Shown in pieces: positions 1 to 373 of a DNA stretch of 373 nucleotides. Source of the stretch: a phage; sequence record OP360909.1; one strand, written 5' to 3'. The position numbers and the translations under genes are program-made. Within the stretch, counting starts at the first letter, position 1; each line of letters opens with the position of its first letter. The notes below the pieces were generated by a model. That model did not search any database. It was given only the letters and a program-made list of their open reading frames with translations, and was not told where the DNA came from.

Positions 1-373
1 TGACGGCTGACGTTCTGATTTACGATATCGAGGATGCGATGAACCACTACGACGTTCGTTCTGAGTACACCTCCCAGTTGGGTGAGTCTCTGGCAATGGC
101 TGCCGATGGTGCAGTTCTGGCTGAGATTGCTGGCCTGTGTAACTTGGCGAGCGCCTCTAATGAGAACATTGAGGGTCTCGGCACTGCAACGATTATCGAA
201 GCGTCTCAGACCAAGGCTGCTCTGACCGACCAAGTTGCTCTGGGTAAAGAGATTATCGCTGCCTTGACTAAGGCTCGTGCGGCTCTTACCAAGAACTACG
301 TTCCGGCTGCTGACCGCGTATTCTACTGTGACCCAGATAGCTACTCTGCGATTCTGGCAGCACTGATGCCCAA
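1..373 (+). CDS. 10A: Major capsid protein of a T7-like phage (gp10A homolog), internal fragment, 5' and 3' partial
   Basis: Seen in sequence: the frame with codons at positions 3-5, 6-8 ... 369-371 is open across the whole window (123 complete codons, plus partial codons at 1-2 and 372-373), while the other two + frames have early stops (tga at 1-3 and at 8-10). Established knowledge: the translation matches, from memory, T7 gp10A around residues 101-224 (LLTADVLIYDIEDAMNHYDVRSEY...RVFYCDPDSYSAILAALMPN). Codon usage is strongly biased toward preferred codons (CTG, GCT, GGT/GGC, CGT/CGC, AAC, TAC, GAC), as expected for a very highly expressed phage capsid gene in an enterobacterial host. Start and stop codons lie outside the window. 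Confidence 0.95.

What the first reader, a model, noticed from the sequence alone, without database searches (positions are those of the whole stretch)
144..212. Cluster of amino-acid substitutions relative to T7 gp10A in an otherwise near-identical segment
Compared with the T7 gp10A sequence as I recall it (...CNVESKYNENIEGLGTATVIETTQNKAAL...), this window encodes ...CNLASASNENIEGLGTATIIEASQTKAAL... That gives about eight substitutions (V>L, E>A, K>A, Y>S, V>I, T>A, T>S, N>T) confined to codons at 144-212, while the flanking ~100 residues appear identical. The changes removing charged or aromatic side chains (E>A, K>A, Y>S) are non-conservative. Such a local patch in a capsid protein may be a surface-exposed variable region (inference), but the comparison rests on my memory of the reference, not an alignment.
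Basis: partly seen in the sequence, partly recalled or inferred. Interest (0 to 1): 0.4.

Follow-up and report, generated by a model that had tools for sequence, protein, structure and literature searches.

The report
Variable loop in T7-like capsid gene
The window is part of the major capsid gene of a Serratia-phage-Pila-like relative of T7, and the cluster of differences from T7 sits in a stretch of the protein that varies naturally in this phage family, so it is ordinary and the same patch is already in a published phage.

Summary
In frame 3 the window encodes T7 gp10A residues 101-223, and it differs from T7 at exactly the eight residues listed (148, 149, 151, 152, 164, 167, 168, 170). The other 115 of the 123 residues (100 outside the 148-170 span, 15 within it) are identical (exact clustering P = 1.7e-5).

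"Near-identical" holds only for the protein. The DNA is 87% identical to T7, with 34 synonymous codon changes spread along the window. T7 is also not the nearest reference. Serratia phage Pila is 98.9% identical in DNA and carries the whole patch.

Across about 200 T7-group capsids, residues 142-190 form one of four variable, indel-tolerant blocks. Here dN/dS is about 0.4-0.5, against 0.03-0.16 in the flanks, and no site shows a significant non-synonymous excess.

The patch has two parts:
- **148-152:** LASAS is a common Teseptimavirus allele with identical codons in ESh2 and Yanou. T7's VESKY is the rare state.
- **164-170:** this allele was found only in the window and Pila. It lies in a short tract about 32% divergent in DNA, which points to mosaic recombination.

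The segment connects the spine helix to the A-domain. Surface exposure is plausible but could not be tested here. Verdict: already known, low interest.

The parts
3..371 (+). Open reading frame fragment of a T7-group major capsid protein (gp10A-like), equivalent to T7 residues 101-223
   Evidence: Translation has no stops. Pfam PF21703 Gp10A-like, E = 7e-43, 147.7 bits against a cutoff of 27. 98.9% nt identity to the Pila major capsid CDS and 87.3% to T7 gene 10A.
63..143 (+). Long helix (T7 residues about 121-147), assigned as the HK97-fold spine helix. No amino-acid differences from T7; synonymous changes only.
   Evidence: AF2 secondary structure: H18-46 of the fragment and H119-145 of homologue P0010, whose numbering is T7 minus 2. 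Block dN/dS for 101-147 is 0.03. The spine-helix assignment is inferred from HK97-fold order, and pLDDT is low for the N-terminal part of this helix.
144..158 (+). Sub-patch 1 (T7 residues 148-152): LASAS here, VESKY in T7.
   Evidence: Codons TTG GCG AGC GCC TCT are identical in the window, Pila, ESh2 and Yanou. LASAS occurs in at least 10 metagenomic capsids. Block dN/dS is 0.50. The alleles assort independently of the rest of the protein.
159..182 (+). Conserved motif N-E-N-I-x-G-L-G (T7 residues 153-160) that splits the patch in two
   Evidence: E154, N155, I156, G158, L159 and G160 are invariant in 73 unique capsids. Block dN/dS is 0.14. Predicted loop with low pLDDT.
183..221 (+). Sub-patch 2 (T7 residues 161-173): TATIIEASQTKAA here, TATVIETTQNKAA in T7. 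The other four substitutions. Predicted short beta-strand (164-167) followed by an indel-tolerant loop.
   Evidence: Strand E162-165 in P0010, pLDDT about 90. Indels at T7 167-174 in many relatives. The highest entropy block of the protein. Block dN/dS is 0.46. The I-A-S-T combination was found only in the window and Pila.
168..224 (+). Short tract of high nucleotide divergence (T7 residues 156-174): about 32% different from T7, ESh2, Yanou and UFV01, against 8-9% in the flanks, including synonymous sites. A probable mosaic or recombinant segment.
   Evidence: Segment identities. Scan statistic on synonymous differences only, against T7: 11 of 15 consecutive same-residue codons differ, position-corrected permutation P about 0.01. 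Window nt 168-190 matches the metagenomic contig L089 (P0010) with no mismatch (22 of 23 nt when nt 191 is counted), and 192-212 is unique to the window and Pila.
234..296 (+). Next long helix (T7 residues about 178-198), the first A-domain helix. Identical in protein to T7.
   Evidence: AF2 H77-99 of the fragment and H176-196 of P0010 with pLDDT 84-94.
261..263 (+). Codon 187, GCC (Ala). The only amino-acid difference from Pila (ACC, Thr). The window has the T7 state.

Best explanation
The window is a fragment of the major capsid protein gene (gp10A orthologue) of a natural Teseptimavirus very close to Serratia phage Pila.

The cluster of differences from T7 marks a naturally hypervariable segment. 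This segment is the connector that leaves the C-terminal end of the long spine helix, passes through a conserved N-E-N-I-x-G-L-G turn, forms a short beta-strand, and ends in an indel-tolerant loop before the first A-domain helix. Purifying selection is nearly absolute on the helices either side, where the amino-acid sequence does not change at all. It is several-fold weaker on the connector, so substitutions and small indels accumulate there. Short stretches of this segment are also exchanged between co-infecting T7-like phages by homologous recombination.

As a result, the patch in the window combines a common genus-wide allele (LASAS, residues 148-152) with a divergent allele (residues 164-170) seen only in the Pila lineage.

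Shown: the identity of the gene, the substitutions, their clustering, the family-wide variability, the dN/dS contrast, the shared codons, and the divergent tract.

Inferred: that the segment is solvent-exposed, that constraint is relaxed rather than selection being diversifying, and that recombination (not in-situ change) produced the divergent tract.
For: - **Gene identity:**
- **Exact substitutions and clustering:** P = 1.7e-5.
- **Same patch in Pila:**
- **Family-wide variability:** entropy peak at 142-190 in 73 unique capsids. Haplotypes are almost phage-specific, with length variation. Indels relative to T7 occur at only four places: about 20, 167-174, 254-280 and the C-terminus.
- **Selection, pairwise:** Nei-Gojobori dN/dS is 0.38 in the patch against 0.10 in the rest of the gene. 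Window versus T7 gives pN = 0 in the flanks and 0.175 in the patch.
- **Selection, tree-based:** block dN/dS is 0.50 / 0.14 / 0.46 for 148-152 / 153-160 / 161-173, against 0.03 and 0.16 for the flanks. No site has a significant non-synonymous excess.
- **Mosaicism:** sub-patch 1 has identical codons in the window, Pila, ESh2 and Yanou, while sub-patch 2 DNA is shared by T7, ESh2, Yanou and UFV01 but is about 33% different in the window and Pila. The synonymous-only scan statistic gives P about 0.01. The left part of the tract matches a different lineage, P0010. Sub-patch 1 alleles are uncorrelated with the backbone, r = -0.11. Synonymous changes per site on the backbone tree are about 1.5-fold higher in the patch.
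- **Secondary structure:** helix, coil, strand, coil, helix. The homologue model matches T7, Kp9 and E1004 capsid structures.
Against: - Solvent exposure was not measured. The AF2 fragment model is poor (pLDDT 51.5), and the full-length model is confident only for the A-domain part.
- The selection tests are simple: Nei-Gojobori, and parsimony on an NJ tree. Recombination in this segment violates their single-tree assumption, so weak or episodic positive selection cannot be excluded.
- The elevated synonymous divergence is significant against T7 and L007 only, and not against other references. The window length of the scan was chosen after seeing the data.
- No donor lineage for nt 192-212 was found.
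Confidence: 0.78

Rival explanations
1. The patch is under diversifying selection because it is an epitope sensed by host abortive-infection or immune proteins that recognise the capsid protein. T7 gp10 is a known co-determinant of PifA / F exclusion, and capsid proteins trigger CapRel, Lit, Pycsar, CBASS and SEFIR. On this reading the allele classes reflect an arms race.
For: - Capsid-protein mutations are a documented escape route from several defence systems, and T7 gp10 (with gp1.2) is implicated in PifA exclusion (papers read).
- Sub-patch 1 falls into a few discrete allele classes that reassort independently of the backbone.
- dN/dS is 4-15 times higher than in the flanks.
Against: - No block or site reaches dN/dS above 1, and no site has a significant non-synonymous excess.
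- The PifA-sensitive phages T7 and JacobBurckhardt (P0035) carry different patch alleles: VESKY...ETTQN and LTSTH...STTQN.
- The published work I could read attributes PifA sensitivity mainly to gp1.2 alleles.
- No residue-level mapping of any escape mutation to 148-173 was found.
Confidence: 0.12
2. The patch is an inter-subunit contact surface, for example part of the 'A-pocket' that receives the N-terminal hairpin of a neighbouring capsomer in mature T7. Its changes would then be compensatory, co-evolving with the partner segment.
For: [quoted passage not shown]
- The N-terminal hairpin (residues about 10-25) is also variable and indel-prone.
- The conserved NENIxGLG core between the two sub-patches suggests a structural role.
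Against: - Distances in sub-patch 1 are uncorrelated with N-hairpin distances (r = 0.07). Those of sub-patch 2 correlate no better with the N-hairpin (0.33) than with the backbone (0.46).
- Phage H5 is reported to have an insertion in the A-pocket relative to T7, but it has a one-residue deletion in the patch. Its insertions lie at 263-266.
- In the Bobi-like nomenclature the A-pocket equivalent (A4) is named after the A-loop (A3), which suggests a later position in the sequence.
Confidence: 0.08
3. The differences are an artefact: sequencing or assembly error, or an engineered T7 derivative.
For: None specific. The window is short and its source is unknown.
Against: - The reading frame is intact.
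- The same patch is present, codon for codon apart from one synonymous site, in an independently sequenced phage, Pila.
- Synonymous differences from T7 are spread across the whole window, as expected for a natural divergent relative and not a T7 construct.
Confidence: 0.02

Closest known systems
Major capsid protein of Serratia phage Pila (MN098329, QFG06806.1; Teseptimavirus)
   Same: 98.9% nucleotide identity over the BLAST-aligned nt 1-370 (368/373 over the whole window). 122 of 123 residues are identical. The whole 148-170 patch is identical, with one synonymous difference at window nt 176.
   Different: Five nucleotide differences (window nt 35, 176, 261, 287, 371). One is non-synonymous: Ala187 in the window and T7, Thr187 in Pila. 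The window is therefore a distinct isolate or variant, not Pila itself.
T7 gp10A major capsid protein (V01146; PDB 3J7V/3J7W/3J7X, 2XVR, 3IZG)
   Same: The same gene and HK97-type fold. 115 of 123 residues are identical, including every residue outside 148-170.
   Different: 87.3% DNA identity. Eight substitutions in 148-170. T7's VESKY at 148-152 is a minority allele in the family, and T7's DNA for 161-173 belongs to a different allele class from the window's.
Shigella phage ESh2 and Cedecea phage Yanou capsid proteins (Teseptimavirus)
   Same: LASAS at 148-152, encoded by the same five codons as in the window. 119 of 123 residues are identical.
   Different: T7-like VIETTQD at 164-170. About 67% DNA identity to the window over residues 161-173.
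Variable surface loops of HK97-fold capsid proteins (for example the A1-A4 loops and P-loop of actinobacteriophage capsids; the A-loop and A-pocket of T7-like phages)
   Same: Structural and sequence diversity is concentrated in a few loops while helices and sheets are conserved (paper read). The same pattern is seen here.
   Different: I could not establish which named loop, if any, corresponds to residues 148-173. Exposure in the assembled capsid was not measured.

Membership tests
Gp10A-like major capsid protein of T7-group phages (Pfam PF21703; HK97 fold) | Sequence match to the family profile above the curated threshold | tested here: met
   The window translation scores 147.7 bits (cutoff 27), E = 7e-43, covering profile positions 40-160 of 279.
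Gp10A-like major capsid protein of T7-group phages (Pfam PF21703; HK97 fold) | HK97-type fold matching solved T7-group capsid structures | tested here: met
   Tested on a 96%-identical full-length homologue (P0010), not on the window itself. Foldseek top hits are 3J7W (T7, E = 2.4e-30), 7Y23 (Kp9) and 9VVQ (E1004). Model confidence is good only for residues about 140-290.
Gp10A-like major capsid protein of T7-group phages (Pfam PF21703; HK97 fold) | Genomic context: scaffolding gene 9 upstream, tail tube genes 11 and 12 downstream, and a 10A/10B frameshift extension | not testable with these tools
   The window holds only 373 nt internal to the gene. The nearest relative, Pila, has this context.
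Hypervariable, relaxed-constraint loop segment of a capsid protein | Elevated amino-acid variability relative to the rest of the protein across relatives | tested here: met
   Mean entropy in residues 141-190 is 0.55-1.32 bits per 10-residue block (peak 1.32 at 161-170), against a protein mean of 0.36. The same pattern appears in a second set of 120 proteins.
Hypervariable, relaxed-constraint loop segment of a capsid protein | Tolerance of insertions and deletions | tested here: met
   Indels at T7 positions 167-174 in many relatives. This is one of only four indel sites in the protein.
Hypervariable, relaxed-constraint loop segment of a capsid protein | dN/dS raised relative to the flanks but not above 1 | tested here: met
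   0.38 against 0.10 pairwise. 0.46-0.50 against 0.03-0.16 on a tree.
Hypervariable, relaxed-constraint loop segment of a capsid protein | Solvent exposure on the assembled capsid | not testable with these tools
   No access to coordinates, and the primary structural papers are not held. There is only a secondary-structure inference that the segment is a connector.
Positively selected immune-evasion epitope (capsid-sensing defence systems such as PifA or CapRel) | Sites with a significant excess of non-synonymous change (omega above 1) | tested here: not met
   No site in 142-180 has P below 0.05; the lowest is 0.19, at residue 152. The method is crude and sensitive to recombination.
Positively selected immune-evasion epitope (capsid-sensing defence systems such as PifA or CapRel) | Known escape mutations or sensitivity phenotypes mapping to these residues | tested here: inconclusive
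   Papers state that gp10 contributes to PifA sensitivity but give no residues. The PifA-sensitive phages T7 and Bas65 (P0035) differ in the patch.
T7 'A-pocket' (receptor for the neighbouring N-terminal hairpin) | [quoted passage not shown] | tested here: inconclusive
   The patch lies at the P-to-A crossing. However, the reported H5 indel pattern does not fit, the loop naming order suggests a later position, and there is no covariation with the N-hairpin.

The most novel reading that the evidence does not exclude
The 5-residue motif at 148-152 (with discrete, freely reassorting allele classes such as LASAS, VESxY, LTSTL, LPDSS and LADAS) and the adjacent 161-173 loop could form a recognition surface of the unassembled or assembled capsid protein. 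A plasmid- or prophage-encoded abortive-infection sensor (PifA-like or other) would read this surface, so that short recombinational swaps of the cassette change the phage's sensitivity to defence.
Probability: 0.06. Interest if true: 0.55.

Novelty: already known. Interest (0 to 1): 0.1.

Why it matters
It matters little as a discovery. The gene is a textbook capsid gene, the exact patch is already deposited (phage Pila), and concentrated variation in a few loops is the usual pattern for HK97-fold capsid proteins.

There are two practical points.
- Comparison with T7 alone is misleading, because T7 carries the rare allele at 148-152.
- The segment is a natural place where T7-group capsids tolerate substitutions and one- to three-residue indels. 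That could guide loop engineering or display, or choosing sites for typing closely related Teseptimaviruses.

If the segment were shown to be read by a defence system, it would give residue-level insight into capsid sensing. Nothing here supports that beyond the general precedent.

Tried and rejected
1. **First protein search.** Searching the protein database with the 123-aa fragment returned only nine partial proteins. Folding the fragment with that shallow alignment gave a poor model (pLDDT 51.5). I replaced this with a full-length query and a model of P0010.

2. **Patch = A-pocket by elimination.** I tried to equate the patch with the T7 'A-pocket' using the indels reported for Klebsiella phage H5. 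My own alignment shows H5 has a deletion, not an insertion, in the patch, and no E-loop indel at all. The published labels cannot be mapped this way, so I dropped the argument.

3. **Primary papers.** I tried to obtain Guo et al. 2014, Ionel et al. 2011, and Schmitt and Molineux 1991. None is held.

4. **Other papers for residue-level placement.** These gave nothing usable: T7 simulations, Viral Phrenology, P-SCSP1u and its supplements, a search for E1004 and a last search. The Vibrio phage paper maps residue 156 of 3IZG to an 'F-loop' and 170-190 to the 'spine helix'. That conflicts with the predicted secondary structure and rests on an old low-resolution threading model, so I did not rely on it.

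5. **Exact-match scans.** Scans for the 69-nt patch in IMG/VR, the JGI metagenomes and the GTDB genomes found nothing.

6. **Rfam.** A scan of both strands found no RNA family. Short ORFs in other frames have no support.

7. **Positive selection.** The per-site test found no significant site.

8. **Covariation.** No covariation beyond the background was found between the patch and the N-terminal hairpin or the 253-287 loop.

9. **Donor search.** No donor was found for the divergent tract among 80 loci and three metagenomic contigs. Only the left third (nt 168-190) matches another lineage.

Full report
**What the window is.** The 373-nt window is open in frame 3 of the + strand and encodes 123 residues. 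These match the Pfam family Gp10A-like major capsid protein (PF21703) at E = 7e-43. Megablast against 50,697 phage records finds 266 T7-group records. The best by far is Serratia phage Pila (MN098329, Teseptimavirus) at 98.9% identity, the next best are at or below 88.8%, and T7 itself is at 87.3%. In both Pila and T7 the match lies inside the annotated major capsid gene, with scaffolding gene 9 upstream and tail genes 11 and 12 downstream. The first full codon of the window corresponds to T7 gp10A residue 101 and the last to residue 223. No Rfam family matches either strand. The short ORFs in other frames have no support.

**Check of the observation.** The other 115 of the 123 residues (100 outside the 148-170 span and 15 within it) are identical. 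Eight changes within 23 of 123 codons has an exact probability of 1.7e-5 under random placement.

"Otherwise near-identical" is true only of the protein. There are 48 nucleotide differences from T7, and 34 codons with synonymous-only changes are spread along the whole window. This is a diverged natural relative under very strong purifying selection outside the patch (pN = 0, pS = 0.33 in the flanks). It is not a T7 with a local lesion.

**An existing phage already has the patch.** Pila encodes the same CNLASASNENIEGLGTATIIEASQTKAAL. The window differs from Pila at five nucleotides (35, 176, 261, 287, 371). One is non-synonymous: Ala187 in the window, as in T7, and Thr187 in Pila. A tblastn of all phage records finds only Pila at or above 99%. 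ESh2 and Yanou differ at 4 residues, ESh6 at 5, several others at 6-7, and T7 at 8. Exact-match scans for the 69-nt patch in IMG/VR, the JGI metagenomes and the GTDB genomes found nothing. No protein in the large protein collection contains the window's 123 residues exactly.

**The patch is a family-wide variable segment.** I collected 80 full-length relatives from IMG/VR and 120 from the protein collection.
- In 73 unique capsids, the per-column entropy has peaks at residues 142-190 (maximum at 161-180), at 261-290 and at the C-terminus. Residues 101-140 and 221-260 are almost invariant.
- Nearly every phage has its own haplotype in 146-174. An invariant N-E-N-I-x-G-L-G core (153-160) splits the segment into two variable sub-patches.
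- Indels relative to T7 occur at only four places in the protein: about 20, 167-174, 254-280 and the C-terminus.
- For nearly every close relative, mismatches to the window concentrate in the patch. The phenomenon is not specific to the comparison with T7.

**Selection.**
- Among 13 close Teseptimavirus genes, pooled Nei-Gojobori dN/dS is 0.38 in 148-173 and 0.10 elsewhere. A sliding window shows ratios of 0.26-0.42 across 141-185, against 0.00 in 101-145 and 0.02-0.07 in 181-215.
- I also counted changes by parsimony on a neighbour-joining tree built from the conserved backbone of 80 unique genes. Block ratios are 0.50 (148-152), 0.14 (153-160) and 0.46 (161-173), against 0.03 (101-147) and 0.16 (174-223).
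- No site in 142-180 has a significant non-synonymous excess. The lowest P is 0.19, at residue 152.
- This is the signature of relaxed purifying selection. These simple methods give no evidence for positive selection, but they are sensitive to recombination.

**The two halves have different histories.**
- **Residues 148-152.** The window's LASAS is encoded by the same five codons in Pila, ESh2 and Yanou, and it occurs in at least ten metagenomic capsids. In the family, position 148 is L in 69 of 73, position 149 is A45/P21/E3, position 151 is S35/A20/T11/.../K1 and position 152 is V39/S24/Y4. T7's V-E-K-Y is therefore the rare state. The 'loss of charged and aromatic side chains' is more likely a peculiarity of T7.
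- **Allele classes.** Among the 40 closest capsids, the sub-patch 1 alleles fall into a few classes: LASAS-like, VESxY-like, LTSTL-like, LPDSS and LADAS-like. Their pairwise distances are uncorrelated with the backbone (r = -0.11) and with the other variable blocks. Those other blocks correlate with the backbone at 0.36-0.46.
- **Residues 161-173.** T7, ESh2, Yanou and UFV01 share almost the same DNA, while the window and Pila differ from them at about a third of the nucleotides, including synonymous positions of conserved residues.
- **Scan statistic.** Using only codons that encode the same residue, the window versus T7 shows 11 of 15 consecutive codons changed at residues 156-174, with a position-corrected permutation P of about 0.01. 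The result is similar against L007 but not significant against other references.
- **Finer mosaic.** Window nt 168-190 matches the metagenomic contig of P0010 with no mismatch (22 of 23 nt when nt 191 is counted). Nt 192-212 is unique to the window and Pila, with P0036 partly similar.
- **Synonymous rate.** Synonymous changes per synonymous site on the backbone tree are about 1.5 times higher in the patch.
- **Conclusion.** Together these results indicate short-tract mosaicism, which is common in T7-group phages. No donor for 192-212 was found.

**Structure.**
- The fragment alone folds poorly (pLDDT 51.5), but it gives helix 18-46, coil 47-70 and helix 77-99.
- A full-length model of P0010 (96% identical to Pila; numbering is T7 minus 2) is confident for residues about 140-290. 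It gives helix 119-145, a coil with a low-confidence stretch at 153-156, strand 162-165, a coil, and helix 176-196.
- This model matches the solved capsids of T7 (3J7W), Kp9 (7Y23) and E1004 (9VVQ).
- In T7 numbering: sub-patch 1 is the C-terminal cap of the long helix 121-147. I assign this as the HK97 spine helix from the order of elements in the fold, which is an inference. The conserved motif is a turn, and sub-patch 2 is a short strand plus the following loop leading into the first A-domain helix.
- Whether these residues face the exterior, the interior or a neighbouring subunit could not be determined. No coordinates were available and the primary papers are not held.
- The N-terminal tail, which is another variable block, is reported to lie on the outer surface of the mature capsid (paper read). 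The variable residues in the patch are small and polar, and indels are tolerated. These are indirect arguments for solvent exposure only.

**The A-pocket question.** T7-like capsids are described as having two specific features, the A-loop and the A-pocket. [quoted passage not shown] The patch sits at the P-to-A crossing, so I tested whether it is the A-pocket.
- Phage H5 is said to have insertions in the A-loop and A-pocket, and deletions in the N-hairpin and E-loop.
- My alignment shows H5 has a one-residue deletion in the patch, insertions at 263-266, a deletion at 278-281 and no E-loop indel.
- The loop nomenclature in actinobacteriophages suggests the A-pocket equivalent follows the A-loop in sequence.
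- The patch does not co-vary with the N-hairpin beyond the background.

The question remains open. I give the interface reading a low probability.

**Defence systems.** Papers state that T7 gp10, together with gp1.2, contributes to PifA-mediated F exclusion, and that capsid mutations allow escape from several defence systems. No residues are given. The PifA-sensitive phages T7 and JacobBurckhardt (P0035) carry different patch alleles, and later work attributes sensitivity mainly to gp1.2. This is a general precedent, not evidence about this patch.

**Verdict.** It marks a known kind of variable, recombining connector segment in a well-known capsid protein, and the exact allele is already public in phage Pila. 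'Surface-exposed' remains plausible but untested. The suggestion of unusual non-conservative change is an artefact of using T7, the outlier at 148-152, as the only reference. Interest is low.

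Noticed in passing
window 35, 176, 261, 287, 371: The window is not identical to Pila. There are five single-nucleotide differences, four of them synonymous. The fifth (nt 261) makes residue 187 Ala, as in T7, instead of Pila's Thr. The window therefore comes from a distinct Pila-like isolate or variant that is absent from the collections searched.
   Followed up: partly
window 144-158 (T7 residues 148-152), compared across P0010-P0047: The five-residue motif occurs in a few discrete allele classes (LASAS-like, VESxY-like, LTSTL-like, LPDSS, LADAS-like). 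These assort independently of the backbone and of the other variable blocks (r about 0), as if exchanged as a mini-cassette or repeatedly re-evolved.
   Followed up: partly
L001 (Pila) capsid residues 17-22 and 148-152: Pila's N-terminal hairpin region reads G-A-S-A-S-D and its sub-patch 1 reads L-A-S-A-S-N, so the same ASAS tetrapeptide appears in two variable blocks. This is probably coincidence. The window does not cover the N-terminus.
   Followed up: no
outside the window: T7 gp10A residues about 10-25, 251-290 and 338-345 (L002 and relatives): Three further variable, indel-prone blocks have dN/dS of 0.29-0.44: the N-terminal hairpin, the long glycine-rich loop (probably the A-loop and A-pocket region) and the C-terminus. 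The rest of the protein has dN/dS at or below 0.16 (≤ 0.10 apart from 174-223, which adjoins the patch).
   Followed up: partly
hit H2 (MT350293.1): The second-best nucleotide hit (88.8%) is a 39,964-bp record named 'Enterococcus phage EFA-2' with host Enterococcus faecalis. It carries a T7-group capsid gene typical of enterobacterial Teseptimaviruses, so the host attribution looks doubtful.
   Followed up: no
P0002, P0007, P0113: T7-like capsid fragments or genes are filed under Cutibacterium acnes, Xylella fastidiosa and Clostridium sp. assemblies. They are most likely phage or reagent contamination in those assemblies rather than genuine residents.
   Followed up: no
L001 2237-2395 (Pila): Pila's annotation lists the gp10B frameshift extension as a separate 'minor capsid protein' CDS that starts at the stop codon of the major capsid gene, not as a joined frameshift product as in T7.
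   Followed up: no
literature: PMC4099482 against the model; PMC11481518 against the alignment: There are two inconsistencies in published descriptions. A paper using the old 3IZG model places T7 residue 156 in an 'F-loop' and 170-190 in the 'spine helix', whereas prediction puts the long helix at 121-147. The H5 paper reports an E-loop deletion and an A-pocket insertion relative to T7, but the sequence alignment shows no E-loop indel.
   Followed up: partly
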